Assembly: GCA_963805945.1 (NCBI GenBank)
Contig: CAWDVP010000003.1
Location: 96,001 to 160,000 of the forward strand
Direction: 5' to 3'
Length of the DNA stretch: 64,000 nt
Origin: Vulcanimicrobiota bacterium
GTDB lineage: Bacteria > Vulcanimicrobiota > Vulcanimicrobiia > Eremiobacterales > Eremiobacteraceae
Part shown: piece after piece, positions 56,955 to 64,000 of the stretch
Numbering within the stretch: the stretch's first letter is position 1
Layout of the letters: every line of letters starts with the position of its first letter
Notes under the pieces: generated by a model
Database searches by the model: none
Seen by the model: the letters and a program-made list of their open reading frames with translations, nothing else
What the model was told of the DNA's origin: nothing
Program-made: the position numbers and the translations under genes

Positions 56955-57956
56955 CTACGCGGACCAGGATTTGAAGCTGCGCGAGAACTCCGCCACGAGT
57001 TCGTGATCGGCGTTGGGCGCCTGACCGCTCGTCGTGAGATAGTCGCCGATGATGAGACCGTCGGCGCCCGCGACCAGGCCTAGCACTTGCTGTTCTTTGA
57101 GCGTCCGCTCGCGTCCGCCTGAAAGCCTGATCAGCGCCTGCGGCAGCGCGAAGCGCATCATCGCCACCGCTCGTAACGCGTCGCCGAAGGGCAGCAGGGC
57201 CCGCTCGCCCAGCGGCGTGCCGACCCGCGGATCGAGGAAATTCACCGGCACCTCTTCGGGTGCGAGCATCTGCAGGTCGCAGGCGAGATCGACGCGATCC
57301 TCGAGCGACTCGCCCATGCCGAAGATGCCCCCGCTGCACAGCTCGAGCCCTTCGGCGCGCACCGCGCGACAGGTCTCGAGCCGTTCGTCATACGTGTGCG
57401 TCGAGCAGATGCTCGGGAAGAAGCGTGGCCCGGCTTCGAGATTGTGATTGACCTTCGCGACGCCCGCGTCTTTGAGCCGGCGGATCTGTTCGGGCCGCAT
57501 GATGCCAAGCGAGACCGCCACTTTGAGCGGCGTCGCGGCACGCACCGCGCCGACGCAGCGTATCACCTGTGCGAGCACGCCCTCGTTAGGCCCGCGCACC
57601 GCGATGACCAGACAGAATTCGGAGGCGCCGTTGCGCCACGCGCGCTGCGCCGCCGCGACCGCCTCGTCCTCGCGCATGAGCGGCCGCACGGCGACGTCGG
57701 TGTGGAAACGCGCCGATTGCGAGCAGAACGCGCAATCCTCGGAGCACGCTCCGGTCTTCGCGCTCACGATGCCCTCGAGGTTGACGTCCTCGCCGGCGAG
57801 CGCACGCGCGCTGCGCACGCGCAGGCTGCGCCGAAGCAGCTCGTCGCGCTCGTCGTCGCTCGTGCGCAGGATGCCCTCGAGCACGGCGCGCGGCGCCGGC
57901 GCGTGCCGCTCGGCGAGGTCGTCGAGCGCGGCGTACAGCGACGGGTCCGTGAGCAT
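56955..57956 (-). CDS. bioB: Biotin synthase
   Basis: KTGACSEDCAFCSQS, NHNLE, CSGGIFGMGE, VPVNFL, GDYLTT. Confidence 0.95.
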   Translation of the reverse strand: MLTDPSLYAALDDLAERHAPAPRAVLEGILRTSDDERDELLRRSLRVRSARALAGEDVNLEGIVSAKTGACSEDCAFCSQSARFHTDVAVRPLMREDEAVAAAQRAWRNGASEFCLVIAVRGPNEGVLAQVIRCVGAVRAATPLKVAVSLGIMRPEQIRRLKDAGVAKVNHNLEAGPRFFPSICSTHTYDERLETCRAVRAEGLELCSGGIFGMGESLEDRVDLACDLQMLAPEEVPVNFLDPRVGTPLGERALLPFGDALRAVAMMRFALPQALIRLSGGRERTLKEQQVLGLVAGADGLIIGDYLTTSGQAPNADHELVAEFSRSFKSWSA

Positions 57957-58630
57957 CAAGCGGCTCCTCGTGCGGCGAGCGGCCCTGCGATCGCCGCCAG
58001 TCTTCCGGCATCCGCCTGGATGCCGTGCGGGATGAATGCTGCGACGTGCAAGCCGCGCGCCTCCATATCCTCTCGCGTCGAGTCTACGTACCACGCCGGG
58101 CTCGGGCCGAAGCGATCGCACACGATCGCATCCGTGCACGGCCGGCCGATCGAACGCAAATACTCTGCGATGGCGAAACTATGGCTGAGGACGCCGAGGC
58201 GCAGGCCCGCGACGAGCACGATGCGATACTCGGGCAGCGCGCGCGCCACATCGCAGACGTATGCCGATGCCGAGAGCGGCGTCAGCGCGCCGCCGCACGT
58301 CTCGACGACGACCGCATCCGTGCCGGCTTCCGCCGCGCGGACGATCGCGGCGCAGCGCTCGACCGTCGGCGCCGGGATCCCCGCGGCCCGCGCCGCGGCG
58401 CTCGGCGCGGCGGCGAGTTCGAAGCGCAGGCCGTCCACCAGCGTCAGCCGCTCGTCCGCGCCGACGACGGCGCGCAGCGCGACGAGATCGGAATGTTCCG
58501 CCGAGCCGGTCTCCACGGGTTTGCAGGCGGCCACGTGCAGCCCATCACGCAACAACGCCGCGCACAGCGCGGCGGAGGCCGTCGTCTTGCCGATGTCGGT
58601 GTCAGTCCCGACGAGCAAGAAGCGTCGCAC
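57956..58630 (-). CDS. bioD: Dethiobiotin synthase
   Basis: GTDTDIGKT, KPVETG, VVETCGG. Confidence 0.92.
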   Translation of the reverse strand: MRRFLLVGTDTDIGKTTASAALCAALLRDGLHVAACKPVETGSAEHSDLVALRAVVGADERLTLVDGLRFELAAAPSAAARAAGIPAPTVERCAAIVRAAEAGTDAVVVETCGGALTPLSASAYVCDVARALPEYRIVLVAGLRLGVLSHSFAIAEYLRSIGRPCTDAIVCDRFGPSPAWYVDSTREDMEARGLHVAAFIPHGIQADAGRLAAIAGPLAARGAA

Positions 58631-59756
58631 AGGTCTGTTCTATGGCAGCGGCGAGAAAGTCGATGTCGTTCTGGGTGTGAGAAGCCGTGAGTGAGAAGCG
58701 GATGCGGCTCGCGCCGTCGGGGACGGTGGGCGGCCGGATCGCCGGCGCGAAGACGCCGCGCTCGAGCAGGCCGCGCGCGACCGCGAGCGCGCCGCCGGCG
58801 CTGCCTACTATAAGGAAGAGCAGATGCGGCGCCGCCTCGGCGTCGCCGGCGACGTCGAGGCCTGCCGCCGTGAGCCGCTCGCGCAGCGACGCGCCTAGCG
58901 CGCGGATGTGCGCTCGCTCGGCGTCCATATGCGGCACGAGTTCGAGCGCCGCGCGCGCCGCGCGCACGACCGGCGGCGGCAGCGCCGTGTCGAAGATGAA
59001 CGAGCGCGCCGCACTGACGAGGTATTCGATCGCGGTCGTGGGTCCGGCGATGAACCCTCCGAGCGAGCCAAGCGCTTTTGACAGCGTGCCGAGCAGCACG
59101 CCGTCGGTGCGCCGCGCGAACGCAGTACCGCTGCCGACGCCGCGATCGCCCACCACGCCGATGCCGTGCGCGTCGTCGATCAGCGTGCGCCAGCCAAAAG
59201 CGTGCGCGCGCTCGGCCAACTCAGGTAAAGGCGGCGCGACGCCGTCCATGCCGTAGATGGCCTCGGTCACCAACAGCGATCCCGGGCGGCCTTCGGGCAG
59301 CGAGCCGGCAGGGTAGACGGATTTCGCCACGCCGCTCAGACGGATGCCGTCGATGAGCGAGGCGTGATTGCGCTCGTCGGAAAGCACGGCAGACGCGCCG
59401 CGTGCGAGCGCGGGAATCGCGCCGACGGCGGCGAGGTAGCCGCTGGAGAACACGAGCGCCGCTTCCTGGCCGAGAAACACGGCAAGCTCACGCTCGAGGG
59501 CGGTCAGCTCGGCGCGGCTTCCCGAGAGCAGGCGCGCGCCCGTCGCGCCCGCCGCGTCGGCGGAGCGCTGCGCGGCCAGCACGCGCGCGTCGCGCGACAA
59601 GCCGAGATAGTCGTTGGAACAGCAGATGAGGACGTCGCGGCCGTCGAGCGTGCCGCGCGCGCCATCGCACTGAAGATCGACGATGCGCCGACGCAGCTGA
59701 CGCTCGTCCAATCGTTCGAGCGCGCGTGCCGTCCAGTCGAAGGGGCGTTCAGGCAT
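58602..59756 (-). CDS. bioF: 8-amino-7-oxononanoate synthase
   Basis: SNDYLGL, NHASLIDG, DDAHG, TLSKALG, AIRPPTVP. Confidence 0.93.
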   Translation of the reverse strand: MPERPFDWTARALERLDERQLRRRIVDLQCDGARGTLDGRDVLICCSNDYLGLSRDARVLAAQRSADAAGATGARLLSGSRAELTALERELAVFLGQEAALVFSSGYLAAVGAIPALARGASAVLSDERNHASLIDGIRLSGVAKSVYPAGSLPEGRPGSLLVTEAIYGMDGVAPPLPELAERAHAFGWRTLIDDAHGIGVVGDRGVGSGTAFARRTDGVLLGTLSKALGSLGGFIAGPTTAIEYLVSAARSFIFDTALPPPVVRAARAALELVPHMDAERAHIRALGASLRERLTAAGLDVAGDAEAAPHLLFLIVGSAGGALAVARGLLERGVFAPAIRPPTVPDGASRIRFSLTASHTQNDIDFLAAAIEQTCATLLARRD

Positions 59757-61043
59757 CGAGCAGCCGCTCGATCGCGCCGCTGAGGTCGCTCAATTCTTGT
59801 TCGGTCGAGGAGAGCGGCGGCACGAGGAGCAGCGTCGCGCCGACGGGCCGCACGAAATGGCCGGCATCCCACAGCGCTTCGCACAGCGCCCAGGACTGGG
59901 TCGGAGCGTCCGCCGCCGGTTCGAGCCCATCGCGCAGTTCGATGCCCGCGACGTAGCCGATGCGCCGCACGTCCGCGATGCGGCGGTGCGCTTTGAGCGC
60001 GTCGAGCCGCGCGTGCCAGCGCGGCGCCCGTTCCTGGACGTGCGCGAGCGTTTTTTCGACGCCGAACAGGTCGAGATTCGCGAGCGCGGCCGCGCATGCG
60101 ATCGGGTTGCCCGCATAGGAGTGGCCGTGGTAGAAGTGGCGCGCCTCGCCGTAGTCGCCGAGGAAAGCGTCGTAGATGCGCTCGGTGACGAGCGTGACGG
60201 ACAGCGGCAATGTACCGCCCGTGATGCCCTTGCCGAGCAGCAGCATGTCGGGTTCGATGCCCGCCTGCTCGAACGCGAACATCGTGCCCGTGCGTCCGAA
60301 GCCCGTCGCGATCTCGTCTGCGATGAGCAGCGTGCCGTTCGCCCGGCACAGCGCGGCGACGGCCGCGAGCATCTCGGGAGCCATCAGCCGCACGCCGCCG
60401 GCGAACTGCACGATGGGTTCGACGATGACCGCGGCGACCTCGCCGGCATGCGTCTGCAACGTCCGCTCCAGCGCGCGCAAGTACGATTCATCCCACGGCA
60501 GCAGCTCGACCGGAAAGCGCAACGCGCTGAACGGCTTGGCGAACTGCTCGACGCCGGAGAGGCTCATCGCGCCGGTCGTGTCGCCGTGGTAGCCGCGCCG
60601 GTGCGCGATGAACAGCGTGCGCGGATGTCCTTGCAGATGCCAGAACTGCACCGCGATCTTCAGCGCTGCCTCGACCGCGCTCGCGCCGTCGCCGGCATAG
60701 AAACACCGCGTGAGCGATGCCGGCATGAGCGCCGTGAGCCGTGCCGCGAGGACTGCGCCGCCGGCACATTGGACTGACCGAGCAAGGTGGCGTGATCGAG
60801 CGTGCGCGCCTGCGTCGCGATGGCCTCGACGATCGCGGGATGGCAGTGGCCGTGGACGGTCACCCAGATGGAAGAGCTCGCATCGAAGATCGCGCGGCCG
60901 TCGGTATCGTAGAGATAATTGCCGCTCGCGCGCTCGATCAGATGCTCGCGACCGCGATAGGCCGCCATCTGCGTGAACGGGTGCCACACGTGCGCACGAT
61001 CGGCTGCAAGCGCCACTTCGGCGGTCGTGGACCGAACCATCAT
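59749..61043 (-). CDS. bioA: DAPA aminotransferase, frameshift near 60760
   Basis: VWHPFTQM, HGHCHP; then YHGDT, DEIATGFGRTG, KGITGG, HGHSYAGNP. Confidence 0.92.
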
Positions 61044-61183
61044 CAGGCGGGCGCTTCGCTCGGGGCGCGGTGTTGTCCCGCGCGAAAAGCGAATGGAGGA
61101 AGCGTGAGCGACTTCCTCCCGCCGATATGACGAGACCGCCACGGGTTTTGTTACACACGCCGCCGAAGCGCAGTACGACCGCA

Positions 61184-62368
61184 ATGATCGTCCTTGGCCG
61201 GTTCTCCGGCATCGAAATCCGCGCACACTACTCGACGCTGCTCGTCTTCGGTGCGCTGACGAGCATCCTCGCGTACGGCTATTTGCCCGTCGTCACACCT
61301 GCCGCCGGTCCGCTCGAACGCCTGGCCGTGGCCATCATCGTCGTCACGTTTCTCGCAGGCTCGATCGTCGCGCACGAGCTCGGCCATGCCTGGGTCGCGA
61401 CGCGTCGCGGTCTGACCGTCAGCGGCGTCACGCTCTACCTCTTCGGCGGACTCGCGCAGATCAGCGGCAGCAGGTCGACGCCGACCGACGACATCGCGAT
61501 CGGTCTCGCCGGCCCGACGGTGAGCGCGCTCGTCGCCGCCATCTTCCTCGCCGGCGCCGCGGCGCTCATGCCCATCAACAAGCAGACGGCGCTGCTGCTC
61601 TCCGACATCGGCTTCGCGAACGCGCTGCTCTTCATCGTCAACGCGCTGCCCGGCTATCCGATGGACGGCGGCATGGTGCTGCGCGGCTTGATCTGGAAGG
61701 CGAGTGGCAACGTCGTCGCCGCCACACGGCGCGCGACGATGTCGGGCAAACTCTTGGCGTACGCGATCGCCGCCGCCGGCATCTGGATGCTGCTGCGCGG
61801 CGACGTGCTCGAGGGCATGTGGGTCGTCCTCATCGGCTGGCTGCTCGCAGGGCTCGCGGAAGGCGCGTACCGTTCGATCATCGTGCGCATCGCGCTCGAG
61901 GGGCTGCACGCCAAGGATCTCTGCGCGCGCGACCTGCCGTTGCTCCAGACCTCGGATTCGGTCGCGGCCGCGTCGGCGATGTTCGGCGCGGGCGCGTCGT
62001 CGCGCGTGCTCGGCGTGATGTTCGGCGAGCGCTTCGCCGGCTTGGTCAGCGACGTCGACGTCGCACGCGTCGCGCCGGATCAGGCGCAGTCCGTCACGGT
62101 CGCGTCCGTCATGCAGCGCGCCGGCGGCCAGCCGACGCTCGATGCCGAGTGCGATGCGCTCGATCTGCCGCACGCGGCGGCCTTGAGCGCGGCTCGCTGC
62201 GTGGTCGTCGTGGACGAGCGCGGCGACTATCTCGGCATCGTGCGCCAAGAGGACATCGCGCGCTATGTCGACATGATCGAGGCGCTCGCGAACTCGGCCG
62301 AGGTGTCCACGCGCCGGCTCAAACGGCTGTTGCCGAAACGGCCGGTGAATGTGGGGGTCGATCTTTAG
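61184..62368 (+). CDS. Site-2 (M50) metalloprotease with CBS domains
   Basis: HELGH, AGP, NALPGYPMDGG; CBS-like C-terminus. Confidence 0.9.
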   Translation: MIVLGRFSGIEIRAHYSTLLVFGALTSILAYGYLPVVTPAAGPLERLAVAIIVVTFLAGSIVAHELGHAWVATRRGLTVSGVTLYLFGGLAQISGSRSTPTDDIAIGLAGPTVSALVAAIFLAGAAALMPINKQTALLLSDIGFANALLFIVNALPGYPMDGGMVLRGLIWKASGNVVAATRRATMSGKLLAYAIAAAGIWMLLRGDVLEGMWVVLIGWLLAGLAEGAYRSIIVRIALEGLHAKDLCARDLPLLQTSDSVAAASAMFGAGASSRVLGVMFGERFAGLVSDVDVARVAPDQAQSVTVASVMQRAGGQPTLDAECDALDLPHAAALSAARCVVVVDERGDYLGIVRQEDIARYVDMIEALANSAEVSTRRLKRLLPKRPVNVGVDL

Positions 62369-62418
62369 ATCGACCCCATGCGGCGTAGCTAACGGCCGAC
62401 CTAAAGGTCGGCCGCTAC
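62351..62418. repeat. Inverted REP pair (REPIN/BIME-like): 62351-62376 (+) and 62393-62418 (-)
   Basis: GTGGGGGTCGATCTTTAGATCGACCC and reverse complement GTAGCGGCCGACCTTTAGGTCGGCCG. Confidence 0.85.
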
Positions 62419-62426
62419 ATTGGCCG

Positions 62427-62954
62427 TTAACGCGTGATCTCGATCTCCAGCGCGTTGTTCACCCGATTGAAGTAGTTGAACAGACCGATCGAGCAGATGA
62501 TCTCGACGATCTGCGCGTCGCTGTAGTGCCGTCGCAGATCATCCCATAACGGTTGCGCGAGGCCCGTCGCGTCTTTGGTCAGCGCCTCTGCCGCGGCGAG
62601 CGCGGCCTTCTCAGCGTCGTCGAAGCGATCGCTGTTCGCGTAGTCGCGCAGCGCTGCGATCGTCGCGTCATCCGCTCCGGACCGCCTTGCCAAGGCGGTG
62701 TGCGAGGCCATTCAGTATTCGCACGAATTGAGCGTCGACGTAAGCGAGATGCACAACTCCTTGAGCCGCTGCGGCACAGCGCCGTCGCGGGTGACCGCGG
62801 CCATATGCTCCGCCGCGGTGCGCATGATCTCGGGCGAGATCGCGAGCGTGCGGAACATGTTCGGATAGTTGCCGCGCGCCTTGAAGAAGCCCTCGAGCAC
62901 CGGCTTGGCGGCTTCGGGCGCGTCCTTCGGATCGAGAGCGGGAAGTCTGGGCAT
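62427..62954 (-). CDS. AhpD/carboxymuconolactone decarboxylase family protein, probable selenoprotein (UGA at codon 81)
   Basis: One 175-aa frame MPRLPALD...LKELCISLTSTLNSCEY-[TGA 62714-62712]-MASH...FNYFNRVNNALEI. Confidence 0.8.
62681..62699 (-). promoter_or_regulatory. Bacterial SECIS-like hairpin
   Basis: ACCGCCTT-GGC-AAGGCGGT, perfect 8-bp stem starting after a 12-nt spacer 3' of the TGA; G first in loop. Confidence 0.7.
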
Positions 62955-62996
62955 ACAGGAAGCATCCGTTACACCCGGCAACTTCCTCGACCTTCG

Positions 62997-64000
62997 ATGA
63001 AAGCAACGCGCAGTCGCAACGCTGACATGTTCGCACGCGCCGCCGCATCCATCGCGGGTGGGGTCGATTCGCCGGTGCGCGCTGGCGTGCCCATGGGCGG
63101 GCCACCGCCCGTGCTGGAGCGCGCGCAAGGCAGCCGCGTCTACGATGTCGACGGGCGCGAATACATCGATTATGTGTGCGCCTATGGTCCGGTGCTGCTC
63201 GGCCATGCTGACGCGCGCATCACACGCGCGGTGCAGGCCGCGCTCGCTGATGGTGCGGTGTTCGGCGCCACGCACCCGCACGAGGTACGGCTCGCCGAGC
63301 GCATCCGCGGACACATGCCCTCGATGGAGCGGCTGCGTTTCGTCAATACGGGCACCGAGGCGTGCATGAGCGTGATGCGCGTCGCGCGCGCGTTCACGCA
63401 GCGCGAGACGATCGTGCGCTTCGCCGGCAACTATCACGGCCACAGCGACGAGATGATCTTCTCGGCGGGTGCATCGTCGAACTCGGCGCCGACGCTCGCT
63501 TCAGGTGTCACGCGCGCCGTCATCGCGGGCGTCGCGGTCGCGCCGTACAACGATCTCGACGCGGTCGAAGCGCTGCTGCTCGACAGGACCGTGGCCGCGC
63601 TGATCCTCGAGCCGGTCGTCGGCAACATGGGTCTGGTGCTGCCGGGGGACGGATACCTGGCCGGCCTGCGCGCGCTGTGCGATCGCGCCGGCACGCTGCT
63701 CGTGTTCGACGAGGTGATCACCGGCTTTCGGCTCGGCATGGGCGGCGCGCAGGCGCGCTACGGCGTGCGGCCGGATCTCACGTGCATCGGCAAAACGCTG
63801 GGCGGCGGCCTGCCCATCGCGGCCTTCGGCGGCCGTGAAGACGTCATGGCCGCGCTCGCACCGCAAGGCACCGTGTTCCAAGGCGGCACGTTCGCGGGCA
63901 ATCCGGTCTGCGTCGCCGCCGCGCACGCGTTCCTCGACGCGCTCGAGAGCGATCCTCATTTCCACGCTCGGTTGGAGACGCTTGCGCAGCGGCTCGCGCG
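62997..64000 (+). CDS. hemL: Glutamate-1-semialdehyde 2,1-aminomutase, 3' truncated by window edge
   Basis: Manual translation: GGVDSPVRA, DVDGREYIDY, RFVNTGTEACM, EPVVGNMG, FDEVITGFR, GKTLGGGLP. Confidence 0.9.
   Translation, partial: MKATRSRNADMFARAAASIAGGVDSPVRAGVPMGGPPPVLERAQGSRVYDVDGREYIDYVCAYGPVLLGHADARITRAVQAALADGAVFGATHPHEVRLAERIRGHMPSMERLRFVNTGTEACMSVMRVARAFTQRETIVRFAGNYHGHSDEMIFSAGASSNSAPTLASGVTRAVIAGVAVAPYNDLDAVEALLLDRTVAALILEPVVGNMGLVLPGDGYLAGLRALCDRAGTLLVFDEVITGFRLGMGGAQARYGVRPDLTCIGKTLGGGLPIAAFGGREDVMAALAPQGTVFQGGTFAGNPVCVAAAHAFLDALESDPHFHARLETLAQRLA

What the first reader, a model, noticed from the sequence alone, without database searches (positions are those of the whole stretch)
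62427..62954. Hidden selenoprotein: AhpD-like CxxU with SECIS-like hairpin
Seen: the ORF track splits this gene into 62712-63443 and 62427-62711, but both are one frame joined by a single TGA. It reads N-S-C-E-Y-[TGA]-M-A-S-H, and a perfect ACCGCCTT-GGC-AAGGCGGT hairpin follows after 12 nt. Known: AhpD/CMD proteins have N-x-C-x-Y-C-x-x-x-H, so the TGA sits exactly at the second redox Cys. Bacterial SECIS elements are short hairpins just 3' of the UGA with a G in the apical loop, and Sec-containing AhpD-like proteins are known in other bacteria. Inference: a 175-aa Sec oxidoreductase, implying Sec decoding in this lineage. The other broken genes here are indels, not in-frame stops.
Basis: partly seen in the sequence, partly recalled or inferred. 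Interest (0 to 1): 0.82.

Follow-up and report, generated by a model that had tools for sequence, protein, structure and literature searches.

The report
AhpD-like selenoprotein hidden by internal stop
This is one small redox-enzyme gene whose internal TGA "stop" very likely codes for the rare amino acid selenocysteine; genes of this kind were already predicted in other bacteria, so it is a sound but fairly ordinary find, here in soil Eremiobacterota.

Summary
Observation confirmed: 62427-62954 (-) is one 175-codon frame with a single TGA (62712-62714) in N-S-C-E-Y-TGA-M-A-S-H, and an 8-bp hairpin with a GGC loop lies 12 nt downstream. The genome holds selA, selB, tRNA-Sec and a UGA-containing selD; selD carries a one-base insertion, probably an assembly error (44 of 178 tested genes are frameshifted). 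Of 87 close homologous genes (this one included), 76 have TGA at this codon and 11 have Cys. A stem of 6 or more pairs stands at the same offset in 74 of 76 TGA genes and 0 of 11 Cys genes, with compensatory changes in 7 of 8 pairs. Sec decoding is therefore very likely (about 0.95), though not shown by experiment. The protein folds like AhpD-type enzymes and keeps their Glu/Cys/Tyr/(Sec)/His relay. It most likely works as a selenol peroxidase or disulfide reductase; a Bmp8-like dehalogenase is a minor rival. CxxU AhpD-like selenoproteins have been predicted since 2005, so this is a new member of a known kind. The scan noted the same kind of gene before, in Gemmatimonadales.

The parts
62427..62954 (-). 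Gene for a 175-aa AhpD/CMD-family protein (TIGR01926-like), read through one TGA
   Evidence: Pfam CMD E 1e-16 over residues 41-124, across the TGA; TIGR01926 78.4 bits over 3-171, cut-off 81.8; GC3 0.86 and 0.83 in the two halves
62712..62714 (-). In-frame TGA, codon 81, predicted selenocysteine (second position of CxxU)
   Evidence: TGA in 76 and Cys in 11 of 87 close homologues
62681..62699 (-). Predicted bacterial SECIS: 8-bp stem, GGC loop 20 nt after the UGA, local fold -11.8 kcal/mol
   Evidence: conserved with compensatory changes; fits the four constraints given in PMC13188914 Fig 2 legend
62721..62723 (-). Cys78, first position of CxxU, likely the resolving cysteine
   Evidence: Cys in 84 of 87, Thr or Ala in 3; Thr in 77-80 of 120 protein-database hits
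62757..62759 (-). Glu66 of the predicted proton relay
   Evidence: 87 of 87; same spacing as PA0269 Glu36 and Mtb Glu118
62700..62702 (-). His85 of the predicted proton relay
   Evidence: 87 of 87; same spacing as PA0269 His55 and Mtb His137

Best explanation
This is a single AhpD-like gene whose in-frame UGA is very likely decoded as selenocysteine with the help of the hairpin behind it, giving a 175-aa C-x-x-U enzyme that likely reduces peroxides or the disulfides of partner proteins. Shown: one frame, TGA at the second redox Cys, a hairpin tied to the TGA across relatives, sel genes in the genome, AhpD fold and relay residues. Inferred from established bacterial Sec biology: SelB binds the hairpin and delivers Sec-tRNA(Sec) to codon 81. 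Inferred for catalysis: Glu66 and His85 activate Sec81; Sec81 attacks the substrate; Cys78 resolves it as a selenenyl-sulfide; a lipoyl- or thioredoxin-type system re-reduces it. The substrate and the partner are not identified.
For: Machinery: selA 501.8 bits, selB over its cut-off and 630 aa intact, tRNA-Sec 78.4 bits with TCA anticodon, selD with its own C-A-G-TGA. Homologues: 76 TGA and 11 Cys of 87; stem of 6 or more pairs in 74 of 76 versus 0 of 11; G first in the loop in 76 of 76 versus 1 of 11. Pairs: 90.5% of cells paired versus 68.4% shuffled and 23-46% when slid; 7 of 8 pairs have changes on both sides (73 sequences, 59 distinct). Cys forms fall at several places on the tree; starred branches force at least 4 changes (quick tree). 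selA passes its cut-off in 23 of 25 TGA-bearing genomes tested (25 picked by hand of 72) and in 1 of 5 Cys-bearing genomes outside Eremiobacterota. All 7 relatives whose close copy has TGA hold selA and tRNA-Sec. Model pLDDT 96.2 with U modelled as C; matches to AhpD-like structures at TM 0.82-0.88. Relay spacing is the same as in PA0269. A second UGA gene, a TxxU peroxiredoxin, and selD have hairpins too.
Against: No RNA, ribosome or protein evidence. No reads of the source sample. selD is frameshifted in this assembly; it has one extra base against six relatives, and a related-strain contig lacks that base, so an error is likely but not proven. The hairpin is not thermodynamically unusual on 60 nt (z -0.18). 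Homologues are kin, so the counts overstate independence; one clade gives 42 of the 76. Within Eremiobacterota all 6 genomes with a close Cys form also hold selA, so selA does not discriminate there. One Cys gene (L110) has a 5-pair run. The score on TIGR01926 is just under its cut-off. Neighbouring genes differ between phyla and give no lead on substrate. The best structural match by E-value is the debrominase Bmp8, not a peroxidase.
Confidence: 0.8

Rival explanations
1. It is a selenoprotein, but it works as a reductive dehalogenase like Bmp8, with selenium attacking a carbon-bound halogen in the way deiodinases do.
For: Bmp8 is the best match by sequence (E 1.2e-15) and by Foldseek E-value (8e-10, TM 0.85). 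Bmp8 Asn170 aligns with Asn163, kept in 84 of 87; that Asn170 is catalytic is recalled, not read here.
Against: Identity is only 26-27%, and peroxidase-like AhpD structures fit as well or better by TM (0.87-0.88). Bmp8 has His three residues after the second Cys, where this family has Ser, with His at +4 as in AhpD. The Bmp8 cysteine mutated in the ligand complex (C82A) aligns with Cys78, not with the Sec. I saw no shared halogenase cluster among the larger neighbour groups (groups judged by eye).
Confidence: 0.07
2. The TGA is a true stop and the next ATG restarts translation, giving two peptides of 80 and 94 aa (a split AhpD).
For: In this genome the codon after TGA is ATG, and the ORF list shows a 94-aa ORF from it.
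Against: Only 17 of 76 TGA homologues have ATG next; 34 have AAC. No purine-rich ribosome site is seen before the ATG. The split would remove the second redox residue and cut the catalytic helix 79-91. It does not explain the hairpin.
Confidence: 0.02
3. The TGA is a sequencing error or a recent nonsense mutation in a pseudogene.
For: The assembly is error-rich: 44 of 178 tested genes are frameshifted.
Against: The frameshifts are indels. The same TGA stands in 75 other genes from at least three phyla, and contigs of related strains in three runs cover the codon with no change listed (8 rows not shown).
Confidence: 0.01
4. UGA is read through with another residue (Cys or Trp) by a variant tRNA or a changed genetic code.
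For: Three database proteins show W or G at this site (P0033, P0103, P0112); these are more likely gene calls under other code tables (inference).
Against: The only TCA-anticodon tRNA scores as tRNA-Sec, lies 5-7 kb from selAB, and tRNA-Trp(CCA) is present. The codon alternates only with Cys in the 87 close homologues.
Confidence: 0.02

Closest known systems
AhpD-like selenoprotein (COG2128, TIGR01926, CxxU), predicted in the Sargasso Sea survey (PMC1088965), as 'AhpD-like 1' in the GOS survey (PMC2398784) and in Table 1 of PMC13188914
   Same: CxxU motif, best NCBIfam model TIGR01926 for this protein, all 52 aligned members match it, SECIS just 3' of the UGA
   Different: Score 78.4 is under the 81.8 cut-off; I could not compare it with the published representative sequence; this clade comes from Eremiobacterota, Acidobacteriota and Chloroflexota genomes rather than marine reads. 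The family is listed as predicted, not experimentally verified.
AhpD-like peroxidases PA0269 (P. aeruginosa), DR1765 (D. radiodurans) and M. tuberculosis AhpD
   Same: All-helical fold (TM 0.88 to DR1765, 0.73 to PA0269, 0.60 to Mtb AhpD); relay Glu-12-Cys-x-Tyr-Cys-xxx-His as in PA0269
   Different: Sec in place of the second Cys; about 28% identity; no ahpC beside it (neighbours are an aminotransferase class III gene and an M50 peptidase-CBS gene)
Bmp8 tetrabromopyrrole debrominase (PDB 6OHI, 6OHJ)
   Same: Best match by E-value in both PDB searches; C-x-Y-C motif; aligned C-terminal Asn-Arg
   Different: His at +3 replaced by Ser; Sec does not sit at the C82 position; no bmp-like cluster seen
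NCBIfam (seleno)protein models NF053654 (YciW-related), NF041238, NF041047
   Same: Same superfamily; weak matches
   Different: 70.3 bits against a cut-off of 310, and 47.2 against 175: not a member of these

Membership tests
Bacterial selenoprotein | In-frame UGA aligned with a conserved Cys of homologues | tested here: met
   76 TGA and 11 Cys of 87; aligns with the second Cys of solved structures
Bacterial selenoprotein | SECIS: loop 3-9 nt, stem 4-16 bp, G in the first two loop positions, 16-37 nt from UGA, MFE at most -7.5 | tested here: met
   3 nt, 8 bp, G first, 20 nt, -11.8 kcal/mol; bSECISearch itself was not available
Bacterial selenoprotein | Hairpin under selection only when the codon is UGA | tested here: met
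   74 of 76 versus 0 of 11; covariation
Bacterial selenoprotein | selA, selB and selC in the genome | tested here: met
Bacterial selenoprotein | Intact selD | tested here: inconclusive
   Present with a one-base insertion; probably an assembly error; unbroken in 11 of the 12 relatives searched, not found in one 72% complete genome
Bacterial selenoprotein | Selenium found in the protein | not testable with these tools
   needs 75Se labelling or mass spectrometry
AhpD-like / CMD superfamily | CMD domain and AhpD core domain above curated cut-offs | tested here: met
   PF02627 61.1 versus 23; TIGR00778 37.3 versus 27.8
AhpD-like / CMD superfamily | Helical hairpin with Glu, Cys-x-x-Cys(Sec), His relay | tested here: met
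   E66, C78, Y80, U81, H85
TIGR01926 peroxidase-related subfamily | Score above 81.8 bits | tested here: inconclusive
   78.4 bits over the full length; best model, just under the cut-off; some homologues reach E 1.7e-31
AhpD peroxidase / AhpC reductase | Peroxide or disulfide reductase activity | not testable with these tools
   needs an assay
Bmp8 debrominases | His three residues after the second Cys (its role is recalled, not read here) | tested here: not met
   Ser in 83 of 87
NF053654 and NF041238 (seleno)proteins | Score above the curated cut-off | tested here: not met
   70.3 versus 310; 47.2 versus 175

The most novel reading that the evidence does not exclude
This clade is a selenium-dependent reductive dehalogenase of soil bacteria: a Bmp8-fold enzyme that uses Sec to strip halogens from aromatic compounds, a bacterial parallel of the animal selenium deiodinases, hidden from databases because gene callers cut it at the UGA.
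Probability: 0.07. Interest if true: 0.75.

Novelty: new member of a known kind. Interest (0 to 1): 0.3.

Why it matters
It corrects an annotation: ordinary ORF calling cuts the gene at its active site. None of the 120 listed full-length protein hits was closer than 72%, although DNA relatives at 83% exist. It also shows that Sec machinery is common in this class (selA in 57 of 61 genomes, tRNA-Sec in 46 of 61). Three paper searches found nothing on that subject, though the BSepDB database may already hold these genomes. The clade is a clean natural experiment: Sec, CxxC and TxxC versions of one enzyme, with the hairpin absent wherever the codon is Cys. AhpD-like selenoproteins are still listed only as predicted in PMC13188914, so one assay would move a whole family to verified.

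Tried and rejected
Reads of the source sample: none listed; best share 0.15, and no RNA holder listed, which says nothing on expression. Folding energy as proof of the hairpin: not significant on 60 nt. A genome-wide scan for other selenoproteins by a loose hairpin rule: too many hits to use, and the output was cut. Rfam on 62200-63100: two chance-level matches, no SECIS family. Promoter and terminator consensus scan: nothing. Gene neighbourhood as a lead to function: synteny holds within the family but differs between phyla. A Sec formate dehydrogenase in the genome: the one PF00384 match has no stop. A second CMD gene in the genome: none found with PF02627. How databases name the two halves: the look-up could not be made, so this stays open. 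The primary Bmp8 mechanism paper: not found; only passages of a review were seen. One search aligned the wrong stretches and was not used. The careful tree did not finish; the quick tree has long-branch outgroups, so I draw no order of events from it.

Full report
1. Observation. Twelve bases after the TGA stands ACCGCCTT-GGC-AAGGCGGT, 62681-62699. It folds locally at -11.8 kcal/mol. Its 3-nt loop, 8-bp stem, first-position G and 20-nt spacing meet the four constraints of the bacterial SECIS model as given in PMC13188914 (passages and Table 1 seen). Against chance: 21 of 54,126 TGA triplets in the genome's six frames have this geometry, and 1 of 20,000 synonymous redraws of the peptide gave an 8-pair stem. 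Against over-reading: a loose rule passes 4,813 TGAs, and on 60 nt the z-score is -0.18, with the hairpin in the centroid but not in the minimum-energy fold.

2. Organism and machinery. The closest named relatives are Eremiobacterota (Vulcanimicrobiota) genomes at 63-83% identity. The genome is 2.3 Mb, 82% complete. It holds selA (501.8 bits), selB directly behind it (630 aa, unbroken), tRNA-Sec with a TCA anticodon about 5 kb away, and selD with its own in-frame TGA in C-A-G-[TGA]-A-S-K. selD is frameshifted near codon 110. It has one extra base against six relatives, and a contig of a related strain (24 other letters in 611) lacks that base. Of 263 ORFs taken from 400 kb of a same-genus genome, 178 had an orthologue-like match, and 44 of these are frameshifted here. 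An assembly error is the likely cause, but reads of this strain were not available. Among 61 genomes of the class, this one included, selA passes its cut-off in 57 and tRNA-Sec is found in 46. selD is unbroken in 11 of 12 relatives, with TGA in 4.

3. Homologues. I examined 109 loci (79, 30). One gave no match, 15 were under 41% identity (a threshold set after seeing the table) and 6 were duplicates; 87 remained, the window's own copy included. Of these 76 have TGA at codon 81 and 11 have TGC or TGT; no other codon occurs. A run of 6 or more pairs at the same offset is present in 74 of 76 TGA genes and 0 of 11 Cys genes; the first loop base is G in 76 of 76 versus 1 of 11. The stem differs between clades (GCCTT/AAGGC, GCGCA/TGCGC, GCCGC/GCGGC, GCTTT/AAAGC, GTCTT/AAGAC), with changes in the encoded residues. 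On 73 TGA sequences (59 distinct), 90.5% of cells pair, against 68.4% in shuffles and 23-46% when slid, and 7 of 8 pairs have changes on both sides. The structure was taken from the window sequence and the rows are kin (one Thermoanaerobaculia clade gives 42 rows), so these numbers overstate independence. Still, Cys forms sit in separate clades of Acidobacteriota, Chloroflexota and Eremiobacterota; starred branches force at least 4 changes (quick tree with 5 distant Cys rows added), and every Cys clade lacks the stem. selA passes its cut-off in 23 of 25 hand-picked TGA genomes (of 72) and in 1 of 5 Cys genomes outside Eremiobacterota (completeness not given). Inside Eremiobacterota the 6 genomes with close Cys forms also hold selA. 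Contigs from three runs cover the codon with no change listed there; 8 rows of that table were not shown. Unpublished genomes G010, G013, G016, G075, G080, G086 and G090 are inside these counts; no conclusion depends on them.

4. Protein. Pfam CMD spans the TGA. The best NCBIfam model is TIGR01926, at 78.4 bits against a cut-off of 81.8; the AhpD core domain passes. The model from a 52-row alignment has pLDDT 96.2 (U modelled as C), with residue 81 in helix 79-91. Foldseek gives Bmp8 first by E-value (TM 0.85) and AhpD-like proteins such as DR1765 and 2PRR at TM 0.87-0.88. E66, C78, Y80, U81 and H85 repeat the spacing of the PA0269 relay Glu36, Cys48, Tyr50, Cys51, His55 (PMC3141380, passages seen). 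E66 and H85 are kept in 87 of 87, Y80 in 85, C78 in 84. Of 120 listed protein-database hits, 77-80 (two patterns) have Thr at the first position and 32 have CxxC. The second position is thus the one that is kept, which fits Sec81 as the attacking residue. That Cys133 is the attacking residue of Mtb AhpD is recalled and was not read here.

5. How it most likely works. SelB binds the hairpin and brings Sec-tRNA to the UGA (established biology, PMC13188914 passage). Glu66 and His85 likely activate Sec81, which attacks a peroxide or a partner's disulfide; Cys78 likely resolves it; a lipoyl- or thioredoxin-type system likely restores it. PMC8945050 and PMC6300522 (passages seen) describe these roles for AhpD and a peroxide-sensitive DR1765 mutant. 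I put Sec decoding at about 0.95 and the whole statement at 0.8. Neighbours give no lead: the gene is divergent from an aminotransferase class III gene and convergent with an M50 peptidase-CBS gene; the order is kept within the family but not across phyla. The Bmp8-like dehalogenase reading keeps 0.07: the fold and Asn163 fit, but Bmp8's His at +3 is Ser here and the Sec is not at its C82 position. A stop-restart split fails because only 17 of 76 TGA genes have ATG next.

6. What is known. CxxU AhpD-like selenoproteins were predicted in 2005 (PMC1088965, passages), counted at 299 sequences in the GOS survey (PMC2398784, passages), and are listed with TIGR01926 among 'predicted with high confidence' in PMC13188914 (section 7 part 1 read). 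Searches for Eremiobacterota + selenocysteine gave 0 papers, WPS-2 + selenocysteine 1 and Vulcanimicrobi + selen 5; by listing and abstract start, none is on the subject. The library lacks most subscription papers. BSepDB (PMC13326102, passages) screened 64,762 genomes. Its supplement was cut at 47,278 rows, so I could not see whether this phylum or gene is in it. The scan's own notes report the same kind of gene in Gemmatimonadales, and two other UGA genes in this genome.

7. Verdict. Real, well supported, and a new member of a known predicted family. Interest 0.3.

Noticed in passing
window 62354-62418: Two inverted GTAG-type palindromes (REP-like pair; the label is recalled) lie between this gene and the convergent M50 peptidase gene; 85 short matches genome-wide.
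   Followed up: partly
G000:C2:352218-352598 (+), L143: A BCP-type peroxiredoxin with T-S-G-[TGA] at C2:352329 and a 7-pair hairpin behind it: a second likely selenoprotein.
   Followed up: partly
G000:C2:536047-536977 (-), L010 and L011: selD has a Sec-type TGA and a 7-pair hairpin with a GTG loop 33 nt on, while five same-genus relatives have no stop in selD; it also carries a one-base insertion.
   Followed up: yes
whole assembly G000: About a quarter of tested genes (44 of 178) are frameshifted, so broken genes in this genome should be read with caution.
   Followed up: yes
L022, L023, L105; P0002-P0023 and many others: A sister group has T-x-x-C (N-S-T-P-Y-C) with no hairpin, at the same locus in the same family; it makes up most protein-database hits.
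   Followed up: partly
L120 (G012:C10:20868-21176): A more distant CMD gene (35%) with C-G-L-[TGA]: another likely CxxU selenoprotein of a different subgroup.
   Followed up: no
window 56955-61226 (-): A biotin synthesis cluster by eye (bioA-, bioF-, bioD-, bioB-like ORFs; labels recalled); the bioA-like gene appears split over two frames.
   Followed up: no
G000:C3:57766-58824, L141: The only molybdopterin oxidoreductase match has no internal stop, so no Sec formate dehydrogenase was found in this 82% complete genome.
   Followed up: partly
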